Positions 26,629-48,290 of a DNA stretch of 57,122 nucleotides are shown one piece after another. The notes under the pieces are model-generated. The model did not search any database, was not told the origin of the DNA, and was given only the letters and a program-made list of their open reading frames with translations. The number at the start of each line of letters is the position of its first letter. Within the stretch, counting starts at the first letter, position 1. The translations under genes and the position numbers were made by a program. Source of the stretch: a virus (taxonomy: Duplodnaviria; Caudoviricetes); the IMG/VR virus record IMGVR_UViG_3300005537_000315, positions 1 to 57,122 of that record; one strand, written 5' to 3'.

Positions 26629-26656
26629 AGTCTACGCTTATCCTCGCCAGTGTCAA
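26629..26656 (-). promoter_or_regulatory. sigma70-like promoter
   Basis: TTGACA-16-TAGACT just upstream of the ATG at 26622. Confidence 0.6.
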
Positions 26657-26669
26657 CAACAAAAAAGTA

Positions 26670-26903
26670 CTAGGACTCTAGCTCTGTCATCGCTTCAAAC
26701 GTTCGTACTAGGTCTGAAACATCAGCCTCGGGTAACTCATCTACGGTCGGCCACATTTCAGGTTTAGTACTGGTAATCACCTGAATCATTTTGTCGATTC
26801 TATCCATTGGTATCCTTTGCATTTCTAAATTTTGTCGAGCCTCCTGCCGCCTGGGCAAATACTGCCTGGGGTGTGGATTTTTGCGTCCTGGGCCTTCAGT
26901 CAT
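26670..26903 (-). CDS. hypothetical protein
   Basis: 77 aa ORF directly after the large structured RNA. Confidence 0.45.
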   Translation of the reverse strand: MTEGPGRKNPHPRQYLPRRQEARQNLEMQRIPMDRIDKMIQVITSTKPEMWPTVDELPEADVSDLVRTFEAMTELES

Positions 26904-27405
26904 GCTGCCTACCTTTCGAGTAGGCCACCTAGCTCCCCTTCACCTTCGCAGGTCGTTTCTAAGGCAGTGATAACGGCTCGGTCGAACCCTTTGCCCTGAT
27001 TCACGCTGGCTCACAGCCCGTGTTCCCATTGTGACGACTGTGCATTTCTGCCTTTTGCGTCACGGGTAACGTTTTCTCGGGTGACATGCCTCTGCGCTCA
27101 GTCGCCGTGGTTCTCTACTACTTCCGACGAACTCACATCGAGTGTGAGCGCTTGCCGGAAAATCGGTTTTGGTGAGTAGCCCGAGGTAGGCGCGGATGAG
27201 TCGCCTCGTTCTCAGTGTTATGCTCCCCCCGCCAGGATTCGAACCTAGGTCTTCCGCGTAGTGTTTGCAAGTGTCTAGGGCACTTTGGTGAAGACCTAGA
27301 AGCTTCACCGCATCACGTACGGACGTTCTAAACCGCTAAACTACGGGGGGCCAGTTTGAATGGCTCCCTAACACTCCTGAGCCACTCACCAAAACCAATT
27401 TACAA
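26900..27405 (-). ncRNA. candidate large structured RNA containing a tRNA-like domain (27224-27350)
   Basis: 7-bp acceptor stem, D arm, TTCGAAT T-loop, 23-bp enclosing helix, many further hairpins, no credible ORF. Confidence 0.7.
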
Positions 27406-27409
27406 ATTC

Positions 27410-27438
27410 AGCTTACATGAAACACAAAACCTTGTCAA
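27410..27438 (-). promoter_or_regulatory. sigma70-like promoter of the structured RNA
   Basis: TTGACA-17-TAAGCT with an A-rich UP element. Confidence 0.7.
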
Positions 27439-27586
27439 GCACTTTTTTCAATTTTTTCGTCTTCGGGCTTTTGCCACAAGTTCTCAAGGTTTTGTTGAAA
27501 ACGCTTCTCTTCCTCTTCGACGCGACGGCTTGCCTGAAGTTCAAAATACCTATCAATCCAATCCAGAATTTTATTAAACGGCCACA

Positions 27587-27802
27587 TTACCGCTTCCTCC
27601 CTTTGTTCTGTGCTTCTCGACTAGCTCGGCACGCATCGCAGCGCGTCCTACGTTCTGCCTTGCGTGTGCAGCATCGAAGGCACCAAAGTTTTTCCTGGGG
27701 GCCTCCGTTCAAAGCTTGGACGCGCAAACGCTCGTTATCGTCCCTGAATCCTGCACGTCGAAAACGCGTTGGCAAGGCGAGGGTCACAACCCGCGTCTCC
27801 AT
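27587..27802 (-). CDS. hypothetical zinc-finger protein
   Basis: CLRC and CDAC. Confidence 0.5.
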   Translation of the reverse strand: METRVVTLALPTRFRRAGFRDDNERLRVQALNGGPQEKLWCLRCCTRKAERRTRCDACRASREAQNKGRKR

Positions 27803-35851: not shown

Positions 35852-35928
35852 GGCGGATGAGGCGAAACAGGTGACGCGCTCGACTGTGAATCGGGCTAGA
35901 GTGGGTTCGAGTCCCATCGTCCGCCCCA
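35852..35928 (+). tRNA. tRNA-His(GTG)
   Basis: Cloverleaf, G-1, CCA. Confidence 0.92.
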
Positions 35929-35949
35929 AAACATTTTTGAAGAAAGCTC

Positions 35950-35978
35950 TTGACAGAATTCCAAATCCATGATAGGCT
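35950..35978 (+). promoter_or_regulatory. second promoter in the array
   Basis: TTGACA-17-TAGGCT. Confidence 0.65.
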
Positions 35979-36001
35979 TCTTTTGAGAGTGAGGGCTGCT
36001 C

Positions 36002-36148
36002 ATGAAAAAGATTGCAGTCACGGATTCGTTGAAAGACCTGAAGTTGAAGGTCGGTGATAAAGTGGAGTTGTTCAAGAGGGTCTGGCAGTACGGCGAAACG
36101 ACCGATAAGAACGGCAAGGTCTCATCGCGCTATCTCGACCCGCTCTAA
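36002..36148 (+). CDS. small hypothetical protein
   Basis: GAGG RBS, MKKIAVTDSLKDLKLKVGD. Confidence 0.5.
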   Translation: MKKIAVTDSLKDLKLKVGDKVELFKRVWQYGETTDKNGKVSSRYLDPL

Positions 36149-36215
36149 AGTTTTTACGAGTTCTCAACTGGCGGCCCTTGCTGGAGGTTTAAATCCTTCA
36201 ACCCCGACCAATTTT

Positions 36216-36353
36216 ATGATTTGTCAACGTTGTCATCAAGAAAAAGCAACAGTCGTGCCTCGTCTCAACCCGTACGATGAAGATGTACGTGGGGAACAGA
36301 ACGAAGAGATTCTTTGCGACGGATGCTACGACGCGTTGTGTGACGAGATTTAA
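36216..36353 (+). CDS. small zinc-finger protein
   Basis: CQRC...CDGC. Confidence 0.55.
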   Translation: MICQRCHQEKATVVPRLNPYDEDVRGEQNEEILCDGCYDALCDEI

Positions 36354-36354
36354 T

Positions 36355-36439
36355 CCGCTGCTGGTGGAACGGCAGACACGTCAGTCTTAGAAACTGATGC
36401 CCTTGTGGCGTGGGAGTTCGAATCTCTCGCGGCGGACCA
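36355..36439 (+). tRNA. tRNA-Leu(TAG)
   Basis: Cloverleaf with V arm, CCA. Confidence 0.92.
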
Positions 36440-36445
36440 AGTTTT

Positions 36446-36531
36446 GCGCGTGTGGCGGAATGGCATACGCAGGGGACTTAAAACCCCCGGCCCGAAAGGG
36501 ATTGTGAGTTCGACTCTCGCCTAGCGCACCA
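36446..36531 (+). tRNA. tRNA-Leu(TAA)
   Basis: Cloverleaf, two acceptor mismatches. Confidence 0.88.
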
Positions 36532-36625
36532 AGTTTTACGAGCGTGATTGGCAGACGTGCCAGTCCTCGGCCATCGACGGATGGTTTGAGTTTAAGCCCA
36601 GCACGCAACACTGGCTGGCAGATCA

Positions 36626-36724
36626 GACGGAGACCTTGGTTCGAATCCAAGTTGGTTCAATGAGCGTGGTCGGCCTTGCATGAGGCGCGTCTCGAACCTG
36701 TCGTCTAGAGGATAGGACGCCGTC
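36626..36724 (+). ncRNA. circularly permuted tRNA-like RNA (YrlA-like topology)
   Basis: T arm precedes D arm, and GACGG/CCGTC closes the structure. Confidence 0.7.
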
Positions 36725-36732
36725 AAAAATTT

Positions 36733-36807
36733 AGCCCTGTCGTTCAACGGACAGGACACACGGCTTCTACCCGTGTAATCTCGGTTCGAATCCGAGTGGG
36801 GCTACCA
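36733..36807 (+). tRNA. tRNA-Arg(TCT)
   Basis: Cloverleaf, CCA. Confidence 0.92.
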
Positions 36808-36968
36808 ATCTTCCCGTGTCGTGGGATACGTCGGCACATATCATGATTCGCTACGCGTTGTTCCGTGGCGAGAGGAAACAGACTTTCTCGATCCGTCTCT
36901 TTGGAATCGCATATACGGATCGAACGACGCGATACGGCAACACGAAGAGCGCGTCGTTGGTTTTAAGT

Positions 36969-37043
36969 GGACTGTTCGTTCAACGGATAGGATAGTGGTC
37001 TACGAAACCACGGATAGAGGTTCGAATCCTCTACGGTCTACCA
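36969..37043 (+). tRNA. tRNA-Arg(ACG)
   Basis: Cloverleaf, CCA. Confidence 0.92.
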
Positions 37044-37049
37044 GATTTT

Positions 37050-37124
37050 GCACCTGTCGTTCAATGTACAGGACTCGGCCCTCCGAAGGCCGTGATCTGG
37101 GTTAGATTCCCAGTGGGTGCTCCA
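37050..37124 (+). tRNA. tRNA-Arg(CCG)
   Basis: Cloverleaf, variant T-loop TTAGATT. Confidence 0.88.
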
Positions 37125-37127
37125 GGT

Positions 37128-37189
37128 TTGATGCATCAAGGGAAGGGATGCCCTAACACCCCAACCCACTCTTTAGGGAGAGTGAGATG
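37128..37189 (+). promoter_or_regulatory. kissing-loop leader of HNH gene (copy 1)
   Basis: Loops CCCTAA/TTAGGG, SD inside hairpin 2. Confidence 0.8.
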
Positions 37190-37567
37190 AAAATCTGTAG
37201 TCGATGTATTTTGTCGAAACACGAGAAAGATTTTTATACCCAAAGCGGCAGGTCGACAAAAATGTCTTGGTGTAAGGCCTGTTTGAAAGATTACAGGTCT
37301 GAGACTCAACTCGCTAATAAAAAGAGGGCAGTTGAATTATTGGGTGGGAAATGCGTTCGCTGTGGGTATTCGAAATGTTTGGGTGCCTTAGAATTTCATC
37401 ACGTAAACCCAGCAGACAAGTCCACGTACACGGGACTTAAAAACAGAAGTTGGAACACGATATCGGAAGAAATTAAAAAGTGTATTCTTCTATGTGCTAA
37501 TTGTCACAGAGAAGAGGAAGAGAAATTAAGGCCACGTAGCGCAGCGGACAGCGCAACTCTTTCCTAA
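37187..37567 (+). CDS. HNH endonuclease
   Basis: CVRCGY...LEFHH...EEIKKCILLCANCHRE. Confidence 0.9.
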   Translation: MKICSRCILSKHEKDFYTQSGRSTKMSWCKACLKDYRSETQLANKKRAVELLGGKCVRCGYSKCLGALEFHHVNPADKSTYTGLKNRSWNTISEEIKKCILLCANCHREEEEKLRPRSAADSATLS

Positions 37568-37605
37568 AGAGTGGGTCGTGAGTTCGAATCTCACCGAGGC
37601 CTCCA
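37530..37605 (+). tRNA. tRNA-Arg(CCT)
   Basis: Cloverleaf, overlapped by the HNH 3' end. Confidence 0.9.
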
Positions 37606-37718
37606 GATTTGAGCGGTGGGTAGCGAGTGGCTAACCAGTGATTCGGGCCGGAGTAGGGCGTGAAACTCGCCAACGTGTCGCGCAGCGGACAAGGCTCAGG
37701 CGCTCAAAAAGTTTACGT

Positions 37719-37805
37719 GCCTTTGTGGTGGAACAGGCAGACGCGCCGCACTCAAAACGCGGTGGGCTAACGCCCGTGTCAGTTCGAGTCTGACCAGAGG
37801 CACCA
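37719..37805 (+). tRNA. tRNA-Leu(CAA)
   Basis: Cloverleaf with V arm, CCA. Confidence 0.92.
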
Positions 37806-37811
37806 AAGTTT

Positions 37812-37886
37812 GCACAGATCGACAAGTGGCTAAGTCAATCGTCTGCAAAACGATTACCGTGAGTTCGAATCTCACTCTGTGCTCCA
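37812..37886 (+). tRNA. tRNA-Cys(GCA)
   Basis: Cloverleaf, U73, CCA. Confidence 0.92.
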
Positions 37887-37888
37887 AG

Positions 37889-38209
37889 TTGGTTGTCCAG
37901 ATGTTCGCGAAGGTCCGATCCCTTCGAGGAAGTTCAGGACACGAGTCAACACCGTGCCGTGGAAGTTGCGGGACGCGTAAGCGTACGGGTAAGCCTCGGT
38001 AGTGGACTGGGTAACGCACTCGAAAGAGTCGAGCACCAGCACCACTCATTGGAGCCGAGACAATCCACACGAGTGCAACTGCAAATAGGCGCAGAGGACT
38101 TTGTTGGCGTTCAGTGACAGCGCGGGTAGCAGGCTTCGCCTTCGGGCGACTAGAGAGGAATGAACGTCACCGCGTAAGCGGAAACAGAATCCTGGCTACG
38201 GACGACCAA
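37889..38209 (+). ncRNA. rnpB: RNase P RNA (bacterial type)
   Basis: P1 GGTTGTCC/GGACGACC, P2 ATGTTC/GAACGT, P3 GAAGG/CCTTC. CR-I GAGGAAGTTCAGGA pairs with CR-V ACAGAATCCTGGCTA to form P4 with a bulged U. Also GTGCAACTGCAAATAGG and AGAGGAATGA. Confidence 0.9.
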
Positions 38210-38210
38210 A

Positions 38211-38582
38211 GTGATGGGCAAGAAAGAAGATCAAGCTAAGTGGTATAGAAACCACCGAGAAAAGCACATGGAAAACTGTGCTGCTCGAAAAGCAGAACAG
38301 ATTGTTCGAAATCAGCAAATGATTATCGACTATTTGTTGCAGCATCCTTGCCTCGATTGTGGTGAAACAGATATAATGGTTCTTCAATTTGACCACGTTC
38401 GCGGAGAGAAGAGAGACGACATGAGTCGTTTGCTTTCGTTCTCAGAGAAAACGGTTCGTGAAGAAATTGAGAAATGTGAAGTACGTTGTGCTAATTGTCA
38501 TCAAAGAAAGACGGCAGAACGAAAACAAAGCTATAAGGTTCTATGGGTCGCAGGTGTTAGCGGCAACATTCCTCCCTCTTAA
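38211..38582 (+). CDS. HNH endonuclease
   Basis: HPCLDCGE...LQFDHVRG...EEIEKCEVRCANCH. Confidence 0.9.
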   Translation: MMGKKEDQAKWYRNHREKHMENCAARKAEQIVRNQQMIIDYLLQHPCLDCGETDIMVLQFDHVRGEKRDDMSRLLSFSEKTVREEIEKCEVRCANCHQRKTAERKQSYKVLWVAGVSGNIPPS

Positions 38583-38620
38583 GGAGCGAGTTCCGAGTTC
38601 AAGTCTCGGGCAACCCACCA
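38545..38620 (+). tRNA. tRNA-Lys(CTT)
   Basis: Cloverleaf, atypical positions 8-9, overlapped by HNH. Confidence 0.82.
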
Positions 38621-38623
38621 AGT

Positions 38624-38672
38624 TTTGTCAACTTATAGGTTGACGTTTGACAACTGTTTGTCAACTTATAAG
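38624..38672. repeat. TTTGTCAACTTATA direct/inverted mini-repeat spacer
   Basis: Two direct copies plus inverted GTTGAC and TTGACAA. Confidence 0.75.
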
Positions 38673-38680
38673 TGTACAGT

Positions 38681-38755
38681 GGGCTGCGGATGCGAGCGGC
38701 AGCAATGGGGCCTTTTAAGCCCAATGTCCGAGTTCGAGCCTCGGGCGGCCCACCA
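38681..38755 (+). tRNA. tRNA-Lys(TTT)
   Basis: Cloverleaf, atypical D region. Confidence 0.82.
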
Positions 38756-38763
38756 AAAGTTTT

Positions 38764-38839
38764 AGCCGACTAGCAAACTGGTCGTATGCGCCTCTCCTAC
38801 AAAGAGGTGGGCACGGTTCGATTCCGTGGTTGGCTACCA
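38764..38839 (+). tRNA. tRNA-Val(TAC)
   Basis: Cloverleaf, C at position 33. Confidence 0.88.
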
Positions 38840-38929
38840 AGTTCTGTGGGAAGAGTGACGGGATGTCCCAGATCGTATGCTGGGGTGCTGCCCCGTAATG
38901 GGTAACCATCCCCCGTCTTCTCAGCCTTT

Positions 38930-39019
38930 AGTCGGTAGCATGGGTATGCAGCGCGGCCTTATAAACCGCGAGCACCCGATTAGTGCGCCGAGTCGGTTCG
39001 AGTCCGACACCGACTACCA
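38930..39019 (+). tRNA. non-canonical tRNA with TAT anticodon (Ile?) and long V arm
   Basis: AGTCGGT/ACCGACT acceptor, tiny D arm, CTTATAA loop, GCAC/GTGC V arm, CCA. Confidence 0.75.
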
Positions 39020-39026
39020 AGTTTGT

Positions 39027-39100
39027 GGGGTTATCGTTTAGTGGCAGGACGCTCGGTTCTCAGCCGAATAGCCGGGGTTCGAATCCCCGTAGCCCTACCA
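39027..39100 (+). tRNA. tRNA-Glu(CTC)
   Basis: Cloverleaf, CCA. Confidence 0.9.
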
Positions 39101-39109
39101 AGTTTCAGC

Positions 39110-39185
39110 GGAGTTATCAGCTAGCGGCCTAGGCTGCCACCCTTTCAAGGTGGTCACATCGGTTCGAATCCGATTAGCTCTGCCA
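39110..39185 (+). tRNA. tRNA-Glu(TTC)
   Basis: Cloverleaf, CCA. Confidence 0.92.
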
Positions 39186-39200
39186 ATTTTAGGAGTGAAC

Positions 39201-39296
39201 ATGAGCGGACAGCTTGCAGTTATTTTCGGAGCGATTGCCGCAGCGGTGGCACTCGTGGTATACTTGCTGAACAAGTACGTGACGAAGAGCAAGTAA
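39201..39296 (+). CDS. small single-pass membrane peptide
   Basis: AGGAG RBS, MSGQLAVIFGAIAAAVALVVYLLNKYVTKSK. Confidence 0.55.
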   Translation: MSGQLAVIFGAIAAAVALVVYLLNKYVTKSK

Positions 39297-39452
39297 TGAG
39301 TTTTCAAGATTGGTTAGAGAAGCATCCGAAGATTCAAAACGTTGTTGAGTTTTTTGTTTTCATCGCGGAAGTGACCGCGTCGCCGTTCATCGACTTGTAT
39401 AATCGAGTCGCCGTGAAGTTCGGCTGGAAGGTCTATCAGTAAAAGTTTTCGT

Positions 39453-39528
39453 GGGCAGTTAGTAGCAACTGGGAAAACGCCTCGCTTGCACCGAGGAGTT
39501 GAGGGTTCGAATCCGTCACCGTCCACCA
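39453..39528 (+). tRNA. tRNA-Ala(TGC)
   Basis: Cloverleaf with G3:U70. Confidence 0.92.
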
Positions 39529-39538
39529 AATTTTATGT

Positions 39539-39612
39539 AGTCGGTTCGTTCAACGGTAGGACCGTTGCCTGATTAGCGACTGATGAGGGTTCGATTCCTT
39601 CACCGACTACCA
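39539..39612 (+). tRNA. tRNA-Ile(GAT)
   Basis: Cloverleaf, U at position 37. Confidence 0.88.
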
Positions 39613-39629
39613 AGTTTTTAGGAGAAGAG

Positions 39630-39830
39630 ATGGCCGCAAATTCAAACATTCCAGCAGTGAACGCAAAGAATCTTGCGCTGTCAAACGATACGGCGCTGGA
39701 TGTGAAAGCGATTGAATTGGAAGATACGGAGATCGTGAAGGCATTGGTGGCTAACCCGAATCGCCCTGACGCTGGAAAGCTGAACGCAAGACGCGGCTCG
39801 ATAGCAACGGCCAAAAAGAATCACGAATAA
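39630..39830 (+). CDS. hypothetical protein
   Basis: AGGAG RBS. Confidence 0.6.
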   Translation: MAANSNIPAVNAKNLALSNDTALDVKAIELEDTEIVKALVANPNRPDAGKLNARRGSIATAKKNHE

Positions 39831-39843
39831 GAAAGATTTTAAT

Positions 39844-39921
39844 TGCGGGTTAGCACTTCTGGTGAAGTCACCTGTCTCATAAGCAGGTCTAGGCTGGGTT
39901 CGATTCCCGCATCCGCAACCA
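39844..39921 (+). tRNA. tRNA-Met(CAT)
   Basis: Cloverleaf, CTCATAA loop. Initiator, elongator or Ile2 identity is unresolved. Confidence 0.85.
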
Positions 39922-40096
39922 TCTTGACACATCGGTTTCGCTGGTGAGACGCTAAGGTCGTCGACGACCAAGCTGGCGAGACTTTATCGGTTGAAGCGCG
40001 GGTTGCTTATAACAATCTGGGCATTCATAGCCTGACCAGCCCTCATTGAAAAGGCGTTCGGTTCGAAACGTTTTCCTTGGGGAATACAGTTTTTGA

Positions 40097-40170
40097 GCGG
40101 GTGTGGTGTAACGGTAGCACCTCATTATTCCAAGTTGAGTGTCGGGGTTCGAGTCCCCGTACCCGCTCCA
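40097..40170 (+). tRNA. tRNA-Gly(TCC)
   Basis: GCGGG acceptor, U73, weak anticodon stem. Confidence 0.85.
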
Positions 40171-40257
40171 AGTTCGAACGCACACGTTCCTTGCCGTCGT
40201 ACGGCGGTTGTGTGGTAACCAGTTGAAGAGGACGATAACACTGGTGTAAATTTCTGA

Positions 40258-40331
40258 GCGAGTTTGGCGTAGTGGTAGCGTGGAACCTTGCCAAGGTTCA
40301 GGCGCGGTTTCGATTACCGCAATTCGCTCCA
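40258..40331 (+). tRNA. tRNA-Gly(GCC)
   Basis: Cloverleaf, CCA. Confidence 0.92.
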
Positions 40332-40339
40332 AGTTTTGA

Positions 40340-40415
40340 GCATGGTTCGTCTAGCGGTTTAGGACATCCGGCTTGTACCCGGAGAACGTAAGTTCGAATC
40401 TTACACTTTGCTCCA
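40340..40415 (+). tRNA. tRNA-Thr(TGT)
   Basis: Cloverleaf, CCA. Confidence 0.9.
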
Positions 40416-40423
40416 AGGTTTAT

Positions 40424-40672
40424 ATGCCCAACGAATTTCTTTACTCCATAGCCCATAAGGCTCGTAAAGGCCCAAAGATAACGATGGGCAAAGGCATGCA
40501 GAGAGTTGAAACGCCTGACCCGATGCGCGGCGTGACTGATCCAGCGAAGTTGTTGAAGTCGGACACCCAGCGCATAGATAGGAACGTCGGCACTCCTGAT
40601 TTGATGTGGCAGAGGTCTCCCGCGACAGGGTCTTCGTCCGATGCAGCGGGACTGGAAATAAAAAAGATTTGA
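40424..40672 (+). CDS. hypothetical protein
   Basis: ORF exactly fills the gap between two tRNAs. Confidence 0.55.
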   Translation: MPNEFLYSIAHKARKGPKITMGKGMQRVETPDPMRGVTDPAKLLKSDTQRIDRNVGTPDLMWQRSPATGSSSDAAGLEIKKI

Positions 40673-40746
40673 GCACTGTTGATCTAATGGCATGATGCGG
40701 CCCTCGTAGCGCCGACGCCGTGGTTCGATTCCACGACGGTGCTCCA
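40673..40746 (+). tRNA. tRNA-Thr(CGT)
   Basis: Cloverleaf, CCA. Confidence 0.88.
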
Positions 40747-40753
40747 AGTTTGA

Positions 40754-40827
40754 GCAGGGATGATGTAATGGTAGCCTAGTTCCTTGGTAAGGAACCTGTC
40801 CGGGTTCGAGTCCCGGTTTCTGCTCCA
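40754..40827 (+). tRNA. tRNA-Thr(GGT)
   Basis: Cloverleaf, CCA. Confidence 0.9.
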
Positions 40828-40835
40828 AATTTTAC

Positions 40836-40923
40836 GGAGAGGTTCGGTAGCGGCAAACTAGGCAGGCTGTAACCCTGCCGTCCCTTGCGGACTTCCAAGG
40901 TTCGAGTCCTTGTCTCTCCACCA
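40836..40923 (+). tRNA. tRNA-Tyr(GTA)
   Basis: Cloverleaf with V arm. Confidence 0.92.
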
Positions 40924-41061
40924 GTTTCTACGGGGGTGTGTGAGTAGCTCTCACATCCGTAGCGAGCAGAGTGCGACGCGATCTCGGCAGAGATCGAACG
41001 GCACGTAACGATCTGACTGCACGATGCGGATTGCTGCATCCCCACCGATTTAGTTTTCTGT

Positions 41062-41136
41062 TGTAGGTTCGTCTAACGGTAAGACGGGGCACTGTTAATG
41101 CCTACGATGAAGGTTCGAATCCTTTGCCTACAGCCA
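41062..41136 (+). tRNA. tRNA-Asn(GTT)
   Basis: Cloverleaf, G73. Confidence 0.92.
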
Positions 41137-41145
41137 ATTTTCTTT

Positions 41146-41220
41146 TCACGATTAGCTCCAACGTAGAGCGGCTCCCTGTTAAGGAGAAGGTTCTTGGTTC
41201 AAGTCCAAGATCGTGAGCCA
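41146..41220 (+). tRNA. tRNA-Asn(GTT), second divergent copy
   Basis: Cloverleaf, G73. Confidence 0.9.
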
Positions 41221-41228
41221 TTTTCAGC

Positions 41229-41304
41229 AGGGAAGTCGTATAGCGGCCATTACGTACGTCTCCAAAACGTTAAGACGGGAGTTCGAGTCTCTCCTCCCCT
41301 GCCA
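41229..41304 (+). tRNA. tRNA-Trp(CCA)
   Basis: Cloverleaf, G73. Confidence 0.9.
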
Positions 41305-41306
41305 TT

Positions 41307-41370
41307 TTGAACGTTCAATTGGGTGGGCGACGCCGACACGTCGCCCCTCGCCTTGTCGGAGGCCGAGATG
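41307..41370 (+). promoter_or_regulatory. kissing-loop leader of HNH gene (copy 2)
   Basis: Loops CCGACA/TGTCGG. Confidence 0.8.
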
Positions 41371-41793
41371 AACCTGTGTCAAGTAGAAGGCTGCAATAGA
41401 GAAGTTGGTTTTCATTTAAGAAAGACCTGCTCCCAAGAGCACAAGGCCCTATACAGGCAGCAATTTGACCGTGGGCGATATGCTCGGCTGAGAGATAAAG
41501 TCTTAGAACACTACGGCAAAAAGTGCGTTTGTTGCGGTGAGACTAGAAAAGAATTTTTGGCTCTCGATCATAAAAATGGTGAAGGTCAAAAACATAGAAG
41601 AGAGTTAGGTGGCGGTGCCTTTAGAATGTATCGATGGGCGGTCAGAAACGGCTATCCTGATACATTTCAAATTCTTTGCCATAATTGTAATATGGCACTT
41701 GGATGTTGTGGCTATTGTCCGCATCAAAAAGAAAAGACCGAACAGAGGGCTTCTACAGAAGGCGGTCATTCGGACGGTAGTGCTCTGAACTGA
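41368..41793 (+). CDS. HNH endonuclease
   Basis: CVCCGETRKEFLALDHKNGEG...LCHNCNMALG..GYCPH. Confidence 0.9.
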   Translation: MNLCQVEGCNREVGFHLRKTCSQEHKALYRQQFDRGRYARLRDKVLEHYGKKCVCCGETRKEFLALDHKNGEGQKHRRELGGGAFRMYRWAVRNGYPDTFQILCHNCNMALGCCGYCPHQKEKTEQRASTEGGHSDGSALN

Positions 41794-41814
41794 GCCGTTC
41801 GTAAAGGTGCCCTT

Positions 41815-42651
41815 ATGAGACGTGTGCTGTCTGTGCTTTTAGCGATGGTTCTTTCTGTTGCGCCTGCGTTTGCAAACGTCAAAGATTTGAAAGGCTTTGA
41901 CAAGAAGGTTTACGACGGCGCTCTTGCGTTGTACGCGAGTTCGCACGACCTGGGCATTCGTGATCGTTTTATTTGCACGGTTCAAGTCATCAGTAAAGCT
42001 GGCGACCGAGGCTACTATTTGTTGGGCGCAGGACATTGCACCCCGGCGAATCCCGATTTGCCGAAAGACATGGAGTTCTCAGTCGCCGAAGATATCAACG
42101 GGTCGTTAACTCCCGTGACGTTGCTTCAATCAGCGATGAACGAACCGCTTGATTACGCTGAGTATTATTTGCGCACCGACAAGAAGTATCCAGTCACGCC
42201 GCTCGGAGACGAGGGCGATGCTCGCATCGGCGACCAAACGATTGACGTCAACTTCAGTCTTGCTCTAGGCAAGTTCGCAAGTAACGGTCGCGTCTCTTCT
42301 AAAGTAGCTCAAAGCGGAGAGATGAAAGGGTTTTTCGGCGTCGACGAATTCGATTCTCATGGCGCATCTGGAAGTTCGGTTGTCGACAAGCGCACGAAGA
42401 AAGTCATCGGTATCGTGATCGCTGGTGTGGATGGCGCTACGGTTTCTACCTGGGTCGAGCCGATATCAGTGATTAAGAAAGAGCTAGCAAGGGTGACCTT
42501 GCCTCGTTCAACAAAACCGTACGTTCGTTCGAAGTCCCCAGTATCCGTGCCTAGTGTGGACGACAGCATGCCTAAGCTGCCAGTGGGTACGCCAGAAACG
42601 GCCCCTGCTATCGGCGTGGTGGCTGATCAAAACAAGCACTATGATGAGTGA
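41815..42651 (+). CDS. secreted trypsin-like serine protease
   Basis: Signal peptide ending APAFA, catalytic GAGHC, DYA, HGASGSSV. Confidence 0.82.
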   Translation: MRRVLSVLLAMVLSVAPAFANVKDLKGFDKKVYDGALALYASSHDLGIRDRFICTVQVISKAGDRGYYLLGAGHCTPANPDLPKDMEFSVAEDINGSLTPVTLLQSAMNEPLDYAEYYLRTDKKYPVTPLGDEGDARIGDQTIDVNFSLALGKFASNGRVSSKVAQSGEMKGFFGVDEFDSHGASGSSVVDKRTKKVIGIVIAGVDGATVSTWVEPISVIKKELARVTLPRSTKPYVRSKSPVSVPSVDDSMPKLPVGTPETAPAIGVVADQNKHYDE

Positions 42652-42835
42652 TTATCGTGAGATGAGAAAGTGGCGCAGGCTAGCGATTGCGTCCTTCTTA
42701 GCGTTCTTGTTTACTGGCTTGGTCAGCATGTGGCAGAATCATGTGATTCAAGTTCAACGCAAACAGATATTCGAACTTTGGGACGCGTATCAAAGTGTTG
42801 CGCACGGTTGTGGCGACAAGAATTTTGTTCTATAA
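42644..42835 (+). CDS. small membrane protein
   Basis: Hydrophobic segment LAIASFLAFLFTGLV, start approximate. Confidence 0.5.
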   Translation: MSDYREMRKWRRLAIASFLAFLFTGLVSMWQNHVIQVQRKQIFELWDAYQSVAHGCGDKNFVL

Positions 42836-42839
42836 TTTT

Positions 42840-42926
42840 GGATCAGTGGCGAAATTGGTAGACGCAATAGTTTGCTAAACTATCAACCGAAAGGTTGTGG
42901 GGGTTCGAGTCCCTCCTGATCCGCCA
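42840..42926 (+). tRNA. tRNA-Ser(GCT)
   Basis: Cloverleaf with V arm. Confidence 0.92.
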
Positions 42927-42930
42927 GTTT

Positions 42931-43021
42931 GGAGAGCAGCACTGAATGGTCGGTACTCGTCTCGAAAACGATGACGCGTTCGAAAGGGCGCGACAGAGTT
43001 CGATTCTCTGGCTCTCCTCCA
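42931..43021 (+). tRNA. tRNA-Ser(CGA)
   Basis: Cloverleaf with long V arm, atypical D region. Confidence 0.85.
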
Positions 43022-43032
43022 GTTTTGTGTTA

Positions 43033-43123
43033 GGAAGGCGGCGAGCGATGGCGTTCATCCGTCTTGAAAACGGCGACACGTTCGAGAGGGCGTGACTCGG
43101 TTCGATTCCGGGGCCTTCCTCCA
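43033..43123 (+). tRNA. tRNA-Ser(TGA)
   Basis: Cloverleaf with long V arm, atypical D region. Confidence 0.85.
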
Positions 43124-43124
43124 T

Positions 43125-43198
43125 CCTCGCTTGGTGTAGTGGTTGCACTCCTGTTTGAAACACATGAAGTCGTGGTTCGATTCCACGGGCGAGGGCCA
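43125..43198 (+). tRNA. tRNA-Phe(GAA)
   Basis: Cloverleaf, CCA. Confidence 0.88.
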
Positions 43199-43206
43199 TT
43201 TTCTGA

Positions 43207-43270
43207 ACCGTCGATAATCGTCATTAAGGACAACGCGAAAGTGCACGGTGCAACTCCGTCGATGGCTCCA
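43207..43270 (+). ncRNA. 64-nt D-armless tRNA-like RNA
   Basis: CCGTCG/CGATGG acceptor, ACGG-TGCAACT-CCGT T arm, TCCA end. Confidence 0.55.
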
Positions 43271-43279
43271 ATTTTCTGT

Positions 43280-43355
43280 TGGAAGATAGTGTAATTGGTA
43301 GCACGGCTGACTTTGAATCAGTCAGGTGAAAGTTCGAGTCCTTCTCCTCCAACCA
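43280..43355 (+). tRNA. tRNA-Gln(TTG)
   Basis: Cloverleaf, CCA. Confidence 0.9.
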
Positions 43356-43360
43356 AGTTT

Positions 43361-43609
43361 ATGCAGAAATCACATGAAGTAGCAAAGCAATTGTTGCAGT
43401 CATTGAAGAACGTGCCTTGCAAGGATTGCGGAATACAATACCCGCACTACGTGATGGAATTTGATCACCTTATTCCACGCAACGGCAGTCTAACGATTGC
43501 AGCCCTTTCTCAGAAGGTCGGTCTGAAAAAACTTCTTGAATTGGTTTCTCAGTGCGAAGTAGTTTGTGCGAACTGCCACAAAATCCGTACGTATTTTCGT
43601 CGTAAATAA
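43361..43609 (+). CDS. minimal HNH endonuclease
   Basis: PCKDCG..YPHYVMEFDH...CEVVCANCHKIRT. Confidence 0.85.
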   Translation: MQKSHEVAKQLLQSLKNVPCKDCGIQYPHYVMEFDHLIPRNGSLTIAALSQKVGLKKLLELVSQCEVVCANCHKIRTYFRRK

Positions 43610-43714
43610 GTTTTTGCCGCTGATCCGGTAGTCAGTAAGGCTCTGCCTAGGTAACAGCCAGGACTGATGAAAAGTGATCCCTTCGCCCTTGTGGGGGCGG
43701 CAACGTTTTTCTGT

Positions 43715-43789
43715 TGGGATGTCTTTCAATCGGTAGGAAGCGCGGCTCTGAACCGCGTAATAGTGGTTCGAGTCCACTCGCCCCAACCA
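43715..43789 (+). tRNA. tRNA-Gln(CTG)
   Basis: Cloverleaf, CCA. Confidence 0.9.
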
Positions 43790-48224: not shown

Positions 48225-48290
48225 TTGTAGTACTGCAATAGGCGGGGCGTGCCCTACACACGCCCTGTTATCCTGTAGGGGGATATCATG
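48225..48290 (+). promoter_or_regulatory. kissing-loop leader of HNH gene (copy 4)
   Basis: Loops CCCTACA/TGTAGGG. Confidence 0.85.

What the first reader, a model, noticed from the sequence alone, without database searches (positions are those of the whole stretch)
27224..27350. tRNA scaffold whose anticodon is replaced by a pair of kissing hairpins
Seen on the minus strand: acceptor CCCCCCG/CGGGGGG, D arm GTTT-AGCGGTTTA-GAAC, T arm CTAGG-TTCGAAT-CCTGG, and a 3' end AGCA rather than NCCA. The anticodon stem (TCCG/CGGA) opens into about 60 extra nt holding hairpins GGTGAAG-CTTCTAGGT-CTTCACC and AAGTG-CCCTAGA-CACTT, whose loops are complementary (TCTAGG/CCTAGA). The second hairpin is one base from hairpin 1 of the HNH leader at 48249 (GTG-CCCTACA-CAC), with the hairpin order reversed. 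Inference: a non-decoding tRNA mimic displaying the same kissing module. It could be a decoy for anticodon nucleases or a trans regulator or protein sponge for the endonuclease leaders.
Basis: partly seen in the sequence, partly recalled or inferred. Interest (0 to 1): 0.85.

Follow-up and report, generated by a model that had tools for sequence, protein, structure and literature searches.

The report
Orphan tRNA-shaped RNA gene in phage
A soil phage carries one stand-alone gene for an RNA that has the body of a tRNA but a branched two-hairpin structure where the anticodon should be, so it probably cannot decode, and its role is still a guess.

Summary
At 27224-27350 (-) Rfam's tRNA model scores 46.5 bits, with 63 nt where 9 are expected. 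The insert alone folds into an extended stem that splits into two hairpins. Their loops share 6 Watson-Crick complementary bases, p about 0.002.

It is unlikely to be a normal decoder. No excision gives a U33 anticodon loop. It ends GCA, whereas 32 of 32 array tRNAs encode CCA. No BHB motif, group I core, splicing endonuclease or RNA ligase was found.

It looks like a self-contained gene. A TTGACA-17-TAAGCT promoter-like site lies upstream, and a 21-nt inverted repeat closes a roughly 240-nt unit.

No homolog of the insert exists. Five related phage records lack the element. The only scaffold relative is an archaeal intron-bearing tRNA-Tyr.

Predicted folding is bistable, with a rival 10-bp helix at probability 0.66. 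The link to the HNH leader is weak.

Best reading: a non-decoding tRNA-shaped ncRNA, confidence 0.45. A decoy role is inferred and untested. A disrupted pseudo-tRNA remains a serious rival. Interest is moderate.

The parts
27410..27438 (-). Promoter-like site TTGACA-17 nt-TAAGCT. The predicted start falls about 27402-27403, at the first bases of the terminal inverted repeat.
   Evidence: one of 7 matches to TTGAC[AT]-N15-18-TA..[CA]T in the window, all co-directional with local genes. The stricter scan did not list it, because its second hexamer matches only 3 of 6.
27381..27401 (-). 5' arm of the terminal inverted repeat (AAATTGGTTTTGGTGAGTGGC).
   Evidence: repeat I1: 21 nt, 90% complementary, 200 nt between arms; the 261-nt fold has z = -4.18, with 0 of 200 shuffles as stable.
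27351..27380 (-). 5' leader between the terminal stem and the tRNA-like body. Part of it pairs with the 3' trailer UAACACUGAG.
   Evidence: Fold; sequence.
27224..27350 (-). tRNA-like body: acceptor 27344-27350/27225-27231, D arm 27325-27341, T arm 27232-27248, discriminator A at 27224. It is followed by GCA, not CCA.
   Evidence: Rfam tRNA, 46.5 bits; sequence; 32 of 32 array tRNAs end in CCA.
27257..27319 (-). 63-nt insert replacing the anticodon loop. It consists of extension helices UA/UA, GUG/CAC and UGC/GCA, then a three-way junction with one unpaired A.
   Evidence: 63 nt against 9 in the model; fold of the insert alone.
27287..27309 (-). Hairpin 1: GGTGAAG-CTTCTAGGT-CTTCACC. Its loop and 3' strand are also a 10-nt perfect complement of GAAGACCTAG, which spans the anticodon-stem 3' strand, the variable loop and the T-stem 5' strand.
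   Evidence: repeat I2 (19 nt, 79%); (alternative helix probability 0.66).
27269..27285 (-). Hairpin 2: AAGTG-CCCTAGA-CACTT, a 5-bp stem with a 7-nt loop. The loop complements TCTAGG of the hairpin 1 loop.
   Evidence: the loop-loop duplex estimate is -7.8 kcal/mol.
27160..27180 (-). 3' arm of the terminal inverted repeat, ending in AUUUU. It could act as a terminator-like end for the roughly 240-nt unit.
   Evidence: repeat I1; (sequence). The terminator scan listed nothing here; its rule allows loops of only 3-8 nt.

Best explanation
This is a self-contained gene for a tRNA-shaped RNA that does not decode. It lies among small leftward genes that carry sigma-70-like promoter motifs, in a phage with a roughly 32-tRNA array.

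Inferred steps:
1. Host RNA polymerase starts about 27402 and makes a roughly 240-nt RNA whose ends pair in a 21-bp stem.
2. The intact acceptor, D and T arms make the inner 127 nt a substrate for tRNA-processing enzymes: RNase P at the 5' end, and 3' trimming with possible CCA addition.
3. This gives a stable L-shaped RNA. Its anticodon arm is lengthened by about 8-9 base pairs and ends in two hairpins.
4. Without an anticodon loop it cannot read codons.

My most likely guess for its action is competition for proteins that recognise the tRNA body. Candidates are host tRNA-cleaving defence nucleases or tRNA-processing and tRNA-modifying enzymes. The complementary loops might lock the former anticodon end or join two molecules.

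Shown here: the tRNA scaffold, the structured insert, the lack of decoder features and the gene-like layout. Inferred: expression, processing, stability and any decoy action.
For: - tRNA scaffold at 46.5 bits with all four stems fully paired. The conserved tertiary positions U8, A14, G18 G19, G15-C48 and the UUCGAAU T loop can be read directly; the numbering comes from general tRNA knowledge.
- The insert folds on its own into a tight three-way junction. Loop complementarity has p about 0.002.
- It is not a decoder. ARAGORN's best excision leaves loop ACACUAC with C33, while 31 of 32 array tRNAs have U33 and 31 of 32 have R37. Of 52 insert-bearing viral tRNAs examined, 36 regain both U33 and R37 after excision; this one does not.
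- It has GCA instead of CCA, against 32 of 32 in the array.
- Layout is gene-like. A promoter-like site lies directly upstream, of the type shared by 7 co-directional sites. The terminal inverted repeat starts at the predicted transcript start and ends in a U run.
- It lies 8.5 kb from the array on the opposite strand.
Against: - No homolog of the insert was found, so there is no covariation and no sign of selection. The one scaffold relative has an unrelated insert.
- Five related phage records lack the element, and a syntenic junction in L011 has no such cassette.
- Predicted folding favours a rival helix that breaks the T arm: MFE -46.9 against -44.2 kcal/mol with the T arm enforced.
- A 19-nt imperfect inverted copy of the adjoining tRNA 3' half lies inside the insert (repeat I2). 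This fits an accidental origin.
- The promoter's second hexamer is weak.
- Nothing supports any particular protein partner.
Confidence: 0.45

Rival explanations
1. It is a disrupted pseudo-tRNA. A phage tRNA paralog took an insertion or inverted duplication in its anticodon loop and lost CCA. It is now inert, or a passive structured spacer.
For: - Part of the insert (CUAGGUCUUCACCAAAGUG) is a 79% inverted copy of the adjoining CACUACGCGGAAGACCUAG (repeat I2).
- GCA is one change away from CCA.
- There is no canonical loop.
- It is absent from five related records, with no homolog anywhere.
- The closest body among 216 phage tRNAs is the window's own tRNA-Thr(tgt), which shares the D loop and the UCCG/CGGA stem.
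Against: - All 40 modelled pairs are standard pairs and all tertiary positions are kept.
- It has its own promoter-like site, and a terminal stem starts at the predicted transcript start.
- The three-way junction is tight and the loops are complementary, p about 0.002. Neither is expected of junk.
Confidence: 0.25
2. It is a cis-acting processing or stability element. The long terminal stem (RNase III-like target) and the tRNA-like body (RNase P target) would punctuate or end the early transcript and protect neighbouring mRNAs. The RNA itself would have no job.
For: - A 21-bp flanking stem encloses the tRNA-like body.
- It lies between two small genes in a run of promoter-bearing early-type genes.
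- A U run follows the 3' arm.
Against: - A plain hairpin would do this job. It does not explain the elaborate insert or the loop complementarity.
- Related phages manage the equivalent junction with a short motif and no tRNA-like body.
Confidence: 0.13
3. It is a trans-acting regulator or sponge for the phage's hairpin-and-SD leaders (three HNH genes and one late gene). It would act through its C-rich loop CCCUAGA or through a protein that binds such hairpins.
For: - Hairpin 2 (GUG-CCCUAGA-CAC) matches the 48249 leader hairpin at 12 of 13 positions.
- It fits the leaders' UG-CC...CA form.
- Its own partner carries the matching change: CCCUAGA with UCUAGG, against CCCUACA with UGUAGGG.
- Loop 2 could pair with UAGGG of leader SD regions, -7.5 kcal/mol.
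Against: - The motif plus a nearby complement is expected 1.9 times by chance. 25 of 200 shuffles give 4 or more.
- The arrangement differs: the partner is upstream, and there is no SD or AUG.
- A window-wide scan for targets of either loop does not place the leaders among the best 14 sites.
- The leader's own loop binds its SD region better, -11.1 against -7.5 kcal/mol.
Confidence: 0.08
4. It is an intron-containing tRNA gene. The 54-nt insert would be removed to give a working tRNA, for example to fill the missing Pro or Asp.
For: - The window lacks tRNA-Pro and tRNA-Asp, while four related records have both.
- C1-G72 and A73 match the relatives' tRNA-Pro ends.
- Insert-bearing tRNA genes that regain a canonical loop on excision are common in viral contigs: 36 of 52.
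- The scaffold's nearest relative is an archaeal tRNA-Tyr whose insert follows CUGUAG, at the usual intron site.
Against: - No excision yields U33 or an NGG or GUC anticodon in loop context. The best is ACACUAC (my reading).
- My hand reading of the pairs finds no bulge-helix-bulge.
- At 54 nt it is far too short for a group I intron, and Rfam gives no hit.
- There is no tRNA_int_endo, RtcB or RNA_ligase in the window, though the record is only about 54% complete.
- It has none of the end motifs of the viral insert classes.
Confidence: 0.07

Closest known systems
YrlA / bacterial Y RNAs (tRNA-like domain plus terminal stem, partner Rsr/Ro60)
   Same: Both are non-decoding RNAs with a tRNA-like D/T 'elbow' inside a longer RNA whose 5' and 3' ends pair. 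That YrlA is handled by tRNA enzymes is recalled, not checked here.
   Different: - Rfam YrlA (RF02553) gives no hit here at E up to 10.
- The window has no TROVE gene.
- Here the terminal stem joins the acceptor end, and a full anticodon stem carries the extra module. As I recall it, in YrlA the terminal stem takes the place of the anticodon stem.
Engineered 'tRNA scaffold' for recombinant RNA (anticodon arm replaced by a cargo RNA)
   Same: The architecture matches: an intact acceptor, D and T body with a structured cargo grafted on the anticodon stem. The method appears in the search listing (PMC3753655; title and abstract start only).
   Different: That is a laboratory design. No natural phage counterpart turned up in 5 literature searches. 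The cargo here has no known function.
Archaeal intron-bearing tRNA-Tyr(GUA) (L029:6443-6568, identical in L038, titled 'MAG: archaeon')
   Same: It is the best scaffold match found: 56.2 bits to my model. Acceptor is CCCCCCU against CCCCCCG. The D arm, A73 and T loop agree, and the insert is of similar length (61 against 63 nt) at the same place.
   Different: - About 22 of the matching bases were forced by the search pattern.
- Its loop starts with the canonical CUGUAG, and CCA is encoded.
- The insert sequences are unrelated.
- Its host is archaeal (split Rpb2 gene; record title).
- The window has a bacterial-type class II tRNA-Tyr and sigma-70-like promoter motifs.
Insert-bearing tRNA genes in viral contigs (unnamed class seen here)
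   Same: These carry 18-64-nt inserts in the anticodon arm of otherwise normal tRNA genes, several of them in phage tRNA arrays.
   Different: Most regain a canonical loop on excision (36 of 52). Of 56, 27 carry conserved insert ends (CAGCAA or GTTACTT). The window's element has neither property.
The window's own hairpin-and-SD leaders (37149, 45863, 48250, 54032)
   Same: The hairpin form UG-CC...CA is shared, and a 6-7-nt complement of the loop lies nearby. Identity to the 48250 hairpin is 12 of 13.
   Different: In the leaders the complement lies 13-16 nt downstream of the hairpin and overlaps the SD before a start codon. Here it lies upstream in a second hairpin loop, with no SD or AUG.

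Membership tests
Canonical decoding tRNA | Cloverleaf with 7-bp acceptor stem, D and T arms, and conserved tertiary positions | tested here: met
   Rfam RF00005 gives 46.5 bits over model positions 1-71. The pairs are listed.
Canonical decoding tRNA | 7-nt anticodon loop with U33 and a purine at 37 | tested here: not met
   There are 63 nt in place of the loop. The best excision leaves ACACUAC with C33. In the array, 31 of 32 have U33 and 31 of 32 have R37.
Canonical decoding tRNA | 3' CCA, encoded in this phage's tRNA genes | tested here: not met
   GCA follows A73. 32 of 32 array tRNAs end in CCA. Addition after transcription cannot be excluded.
Archaeal-type (BHB) intron-containing tRNA | Bulge-helix-bulge at the exon-intron junctions | tested here: not met
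   My hand reading of the pairs finds internal loops on both sides of a 3-bp helix, not staggered 3-nt bulges around 4 bp. The motif definition is recalled, not taken from a tool.
Archaeal-type (BHB) intron-containing tRNA | Splicing endonuclease and ligase available | tested here: inconclusive
   PF01974, PF01139 and PF09414 are absent from the window. The record is only about 54% complete and the host is unknown.
Group I intron in a tRNA anticodon loop | Catalytic core of about 200 nt or more | tested here: not met
   The insert is 54-63 nt. No Rfam intron hit at E up to 10.
YrlA / Y RNA | Match to the family model, with an Rsr-binding stem | tested here: not met
   No RF02553 or Y_RNA hit at E up to 10 in 26900-27700.
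YrlA / Y RNA | Linked rsr (TROVE) gene | tested here: inconclusive
   PF05731 is absent from the window. The record is incomplete.
tmRNA | tRNA-like ends plus a tag reading frame | tested here: not met
   ARAGORN and Rfam report no tmRNA in the window.
Window's hairpin-and-SD leader family | Loop complement 13-16 nt downstream of the hairpin, overlapping an SD and a start codon | tested here: not met
   The complement lies 12 nt upstream of the hairpin, in another hairpin loop, with no SD or AUG.
Viral insert-bearing tRNA genes (classes seen) | Canonical loop after excision; insert ends CAGCAA or GTTACTT | tested here: not met

The most novel reading that the evidence does not exclude
A phage has built a natural 'tRNA scaffold' device. 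The tRNA body would secure processing and stability and attract tRNA-binding host proteins. The grafted three-way junction would switch between a tRNA-like fold and a rod-like fold, or pair two molecules through its complementary loops. The RNA would then trap tRNA-targeting defence nucleases early in infection without being cleavable at an anticodon.
Probability: 0.12. Interest if true: 0.8.

Novelty: new variant of a known kind. Interest (0 to 1): 0.45.

Why it matters
Phage tRNAs are now known to counter tRNA-cleaving host defences. A tRNA-shaped RNA with no anticodon would be a different tactic, using mimicry rather than replacement. It would also be a natural version of the laboratory tRNA scaffold.

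As it stands the element is a single copy in one metagenomic phage fragment, with no conservation or expression data. Its value is as a clear, cheap target for testing.

The search also turned up many viral tRNA genes with short, motif-bearing inserts. These may matter more widely than this one element.

Tried and rejected
- **RNA evidence.** The look-up of sequencing runs listed one DNA run, probably the source, and no RNA holder. Laying it gave a single identical contig and no variants.
- **Homolog searches that found nothing.**
  - blastn of 801 nt against GenBank phages.
  - Exact T arm plus acceptor in viral contigs.
  - Two degenerate 5'-half or gapped patterns in viral contigs.
  - blastn against 13 loci of related phages.
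  - Rfam and ARAGORN on those loci.
  - My model R1 on 5 related records.
  - Note that R1 was built from one sequence and my own structure, so it leans to sequence.
- **Synteny.** The 438-aa neighbour (phrog_2319, once annotated RecT-like) is widespread and not tied to the element. A tRNA upstream of its homolog in L002 was left as a probable coincidence.
- **Ribozyme or riboswitch.** No Rfam hit. I checked hammerhead core motifs by eye and rejected them.
- **Hidden decoder.** I looked by eye for NGG or GUC in a loop context, and for hairpin 2 acting as an anticodon arm (it would read CUA, but with C33). I rejected these as contrived.
- **Loop targets.** A window-wide scan found nothing pointing to the leaders.
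- **Generic 'hairpin loop with nearby complement' test.** It gives 463 hits in the window, so it is uninformative.
- **Downstream 266 nt.** Not significantly structured, z = -1.17.
- **The 77-aa downstream ORF.** No family and no Atlas lead.
- **Unavailable.** Earlier findings were not open. Relatives cannot be drawn for a virus record. L029 and L032 records are not held for whole-record search.
- **Literature.** Five searches and one passage look-up gave no description of such an element. I saw only listings and those passages. Supplements were not consulted.

Full report
**1. What is there**

In order:
- acceptor CCCCCCG, then UA
- D arm GUUU-AGCGGUUUA-GAAC, then G
- anticodon stem UCCG
- about 63 nt of insert
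- CGGA, then variable loop AGAC
- T arm CUAGG-UUCGAAU-CCUGG
- CGGGGGG, discriminator A, then GCA

Rfam's tRNA model matches end to end at 46.5 bits (E = 8.5e-7 over the window), with 63 nt where the model expects 9. Default ARAGORN finds 32 tRNAs at 35.8-43.8 kb on the plus strand and nothing here. In intron mode it calls 'tRNA-Ser(act)' with a 54-nt intron. This is the only such call in the window apart from one 2-nt oddity.

The positions that hold a tRNA together are all present in the sequence: U8, A14, G18 G19, G15 with C48, the UUCGAAU loop, and G53-C61. The numbering comes from general tRNA knowledge.

**2. The insert**

Folded alone, positions 27253-27323 give the same structure as MFE and centroid. 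That structure is:
- stem UCCG/CGGA
- short helices UA/UA, GUG/CAC and UGC/GCA
- a three-way junction with one unpaired A
- hairpin 1 (7 bp, 9-nt loop) and hairpin 2 (5 bp, 7-nt loop)

The energy is -22.3 kcal/mol, z = -1.98, with 9 of 200 shuffles as good.

The loops share six Watson-Crick complementary bases, UCUAGG and CCUAGA. Random loops of these sizes do so 0.18% of the time and permuted own loops 0.28%. With G-U allowed the figure is 2%. The duplex estimate is -7.8 kcal/mol.

Two cautions apply.
- With stems of 7 and 5 bp joined by one base, a full 6-bp kiss within one molecule looks strained. Pairing between two molecules is at least as plausible. This is my geometric judgement, not a computation.
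- The loop and 3' strand of hairpin 1 (CUAGGUCUUC) are a perfect complement of GAAGACCUAG in the tRNA body. This belongs to a 19-nt, 79% inverted repeat (repeat I2). In the 127-nt ensemble the rival helix has probability 0.66, against 0.33 for hairpin 1 and 0.01-0.04 for the T stem. The best fold with the T arm enforced is 2.7 kcal/mol above the MFE.

The RNA is therefore predicted to be bistable. The inverted copy also hints at how the insert arose.

**3. It does not look like a decoder**

- No way of cutting the insert out leaves a loop with U33. The options are ACACUAC, ACGCUAC, ACGUUAC and ACGUGAC (my reading; ARAGORN's choice).
- In the array, 31 of 32 tRNAs have U33, 31 of 32 have a purine at 37, and 32 of 32 encode CCA. 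This gene has GCA.
- The pairs do not form a bulge-helix-bulge (hand reading; the motif is recalled).
- The insert is too short for a group I intron, and nothing in Rfam matches at E up to 10.
- The window has no tRNA splicing endonuclease, RtcB, RNA ligase or CCA-adding enzyme family. The record is only about 54% complete, so this is weak evidence.

The array lacks tRNA-Pro and tRNA-Asp, while four related records have both. C1-G72 with A73 matches the ends of those relatives' tRNA-Pro genes. But no NGG or GUC sits in a loop context. I therefore give the intron reading 0.07.

**4. Layout**

- TTGACA-17 nt-TAAGCT lies at 27438-27410 (-). It is one of 7 sites of the form TTGAC[AT]-N15-18-TA..[CA]T, and all 7 are co-directional with local genes. 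Five of them lie at 26.6-30.8 kb on the minus strand. The stricter scan did not list it.
- A 21-nt inverted repeat (90% complementary) has arms at 27381-27401 and 27160-27180. The 261-nt fold has z = -4.18, with 0 of 200 shuffles as stable.
- The 5' arm begins where a transcript from that promoter should start, and the 3' arm ends in AUUUU.
- The unit sits between a 71-aa gene with homologs in relatives and a small ORF of no known family.

It therefore reads as a self-contained RNA gene of about 240 nt with the tRNA-like body inside. All of this is inferred from sequence.

**5. The phage and its relatives**

- The window is an IMG/VR record from soil, with GC about 0.50.
- It encodes a helicase, a primase, a DNA polymerase, a terminase, a portal protein and a 553-aa 'DNA transfer protein' family member.
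- Its terminase is at most 24% identical to any GenBank phage.
- Relatives at 59-74% identity in the 553-aa protein are 44-112 kb records. Two of them have direct terminal repeats, and five have 25-30 tRNA matches each.
- None of the five records searched with the Rfam tRNA model has a tRNA match longer than about 90 nt. None of the five searched with my model has a match.
- In L011 the homolog of the upstream 71-aa gene is followed directly by a promoter and a gene.

The cassette is thus specific to this phage among what is available.

**6. The only scaffold relative**

A gapped pattern (D loop, then 60-90 nt, then T loop) in metagenome contigs gave 18 loci. One of them, L029:6443-6568, matches my model at 56.2 bits. 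Its features are acceptor CCCCCCU, the same D arm, A73 and a 61-nt insert.
- About 22 of the matching bases were forced by the pattern. The acceptor, the UCC/GGA stem and the AGA variable loop were not.
- Its loop begins CUGUAG, which reads as a Tyr anticodon loop, and CCA is encoded.
- The locus carries a split Rpb2-type RNA polymerase gene.
- The identical sequence occurs in a record titled 'MAG: archaeon'. That was the only hit for the 5'-half pattern in 185,579 species genomes.

It is therefore an archaeal intron-bearing tRNA-Tyr. The two insert sequences are unrelated. The window's phage has a bacterial-type class II tRNA-Tyr and sigma-70-like promoter motifs. I treat the likeness as shared or convergent scaffold features, not as evidence of splicing.

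Among 216 tRNAs of this phage group, the closest body is the window's own tRNA-Thr(tgt).

**7. The HNH-leader link**

The window has four leaders with the same design. A G-rich hairpin has a loop of the form UG-CC.....CA. That loop is complementary to the Shine-Dalgarno region 13-16 nt downstream of the hairpin. The loop and its partner differ together from leader to leader:
- CCCUAA with UUAGGG
- CCUCUAU with AUAGAGG
- CCCUACA with UGUAGGG
- CCUUUAC with GUAAAGG

They lie at 37149, 45863, 48250 and 54032. Three precede ORFs with HNH matches; one of those matches is strong and two are weaker.

Hairpin 2 of the tRNA-like element matches the 48250 hairpin at 12 of 13 positions, and it has its own matching partner. 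However:
- The partner lies upstream in another hairpin loop.
- There is no SD or start codon.
- The stem is not G-rich.
- The motif with a nearby complement is expected 1.9 times by chance.
- 16 of 100 shuffles reproduce the 13-mer count at up to 2 mismatches.
- A scan of the window for the best partners of either loop does not find the leaders.

The likeness is a lead, not a finding.

**8. Context found on the way**

- There are 99 distinct sequences, and 56 have a paired acceptor stem.
- ARAGORN in intron mode of the 56 as whole tRNAs with 18-64-nt inserts. After excision, 36 of the 52 keep both U33 and R37.
- Two insert types recur, carrying CAGCAA (15 of 56) or GTTACTT-like (12 of 56) motifs near their 3' ends. 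In the examples I read by hand, the insert lies on the 5' side of the anticodon stem and starts with UA.
- Some lie in arrays with a bacterial tmRNA.

Short inserts in viral tRNA genes are therefore not rare. The window's element differs from them: it has no canonical loop on excision and none of these end motifs. I found no description of these inserts in five literature searches (listings only, plus the passages).

**9. Verdict**

The element is best read as a non-decoding, tRNA-shaped ncRNA gene (0.45). Any decoy action on tRNA-binding proteins is my inference. The rivals are:
- a disrupted pseudo-tRNA (0.25)
- a cis-acting processing or stability element (0.13)
- a regulator of the leaders (0.08)
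- a spliced tRNA (0.07)

With one copy, no relatives and no RNA data, the function cannot be settled here. I rate it a new variant of a known kind (tRNA-like ncRNAs), with interest 0.45.

Noticed in passing
window 37149, 45863, 48250, 54032 (+): Four leaders share one design. A G-rich hairpin has a loop (UG-CC.....CA) complementary to the Shine-Dalgarno region 13-16 nt downstream of the hairpin, and loop and partner change together between copies. Three precede ORFs with HNH matches and one precedes a late gene. This looks like a translational-control pseudoknot family.
   Followed up: partly
L039 onward (viral contigs), e.g. L077:957-1077, L065:3652-3786, L087:4344-4480, L048:2058-2177: Many viral tRNA genes carry 18-64-nt inserts in the anticodon arm: 56 distinct with a paired acceptor, of which 36 of 52 regain U33 and R37 on excision. 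Two recurrent insert types carry CAGCAA or GTTACTT motifs near their 3' ends; in examples read by hand they sit on the 5' side of the anticodon stem. Some lie in arrays with a bacterial tmRNA. No description turned up in 5 literature searches.
   Followed up: partly
window 35853-43789 (+): The 32-tRNA array has no tRNA-Pro or tRNA-Asp, while four related records have both. Where relatives have Asn-Asp-Trp, the window has Asn-Asn-Trp. Where relatives have His-Pro-Pro, the window has a promoter-like site and a small ORF.
   Followed up: partly
window 36557-36659 (+): A 103-nt stretch in the array has a perfect T arm (CTTGG-TTCGAAT-CCAAG) and a weak full-length match to my model (13.5 bits). ARAGORN makes no call and Rfam has no gathering-level hit. 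It may be a tRNA remnant.
   Followed up: partly
window 38930-39019 (+): A 90-nt 'tRNA-Ile(tat)' has its anticodon at position 31. In intron mode ARAGORN recalls it as Tyr(ata) with a 2-nt intron. It is an oddly built array member.
   Followed up: no
L002:3619-3691 (+): In the only viral-contig relative found with the 438-aa neighbour as query, a tRNA-Phe(gaa) call lacking positions 8-9 lies about 310 nt upstream of the homologous gene. This echoes the window's arrangement but is probably coincidence.
   Followed up: no
L032:29-155 (-) and L032:2745-2840 (-): Two insert-bearing tRNA matches (127 and 96 nt) lie in a 10-tRNA array that also has a near-threshold permuted-tmRNA match. The first seems to have a long extended anticodon arm and no clear 7-nt loop.
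   Followed up: no
window, whole: CTAG is about two-fold under-represented (113 seen, 223 expected from base composition). Yet three CTAG sites fall within 52 nt of the element, at 27245, 27275 and 27296.
   Followed up: no
window 26650-26685 (-) and L011:4010-4040 (+): A shared junction motif (tagtac, then a T run, then gttgTTGACA) marks gene ends followed by promoter-like sites in this phage and in a relative.
   Followed up: no
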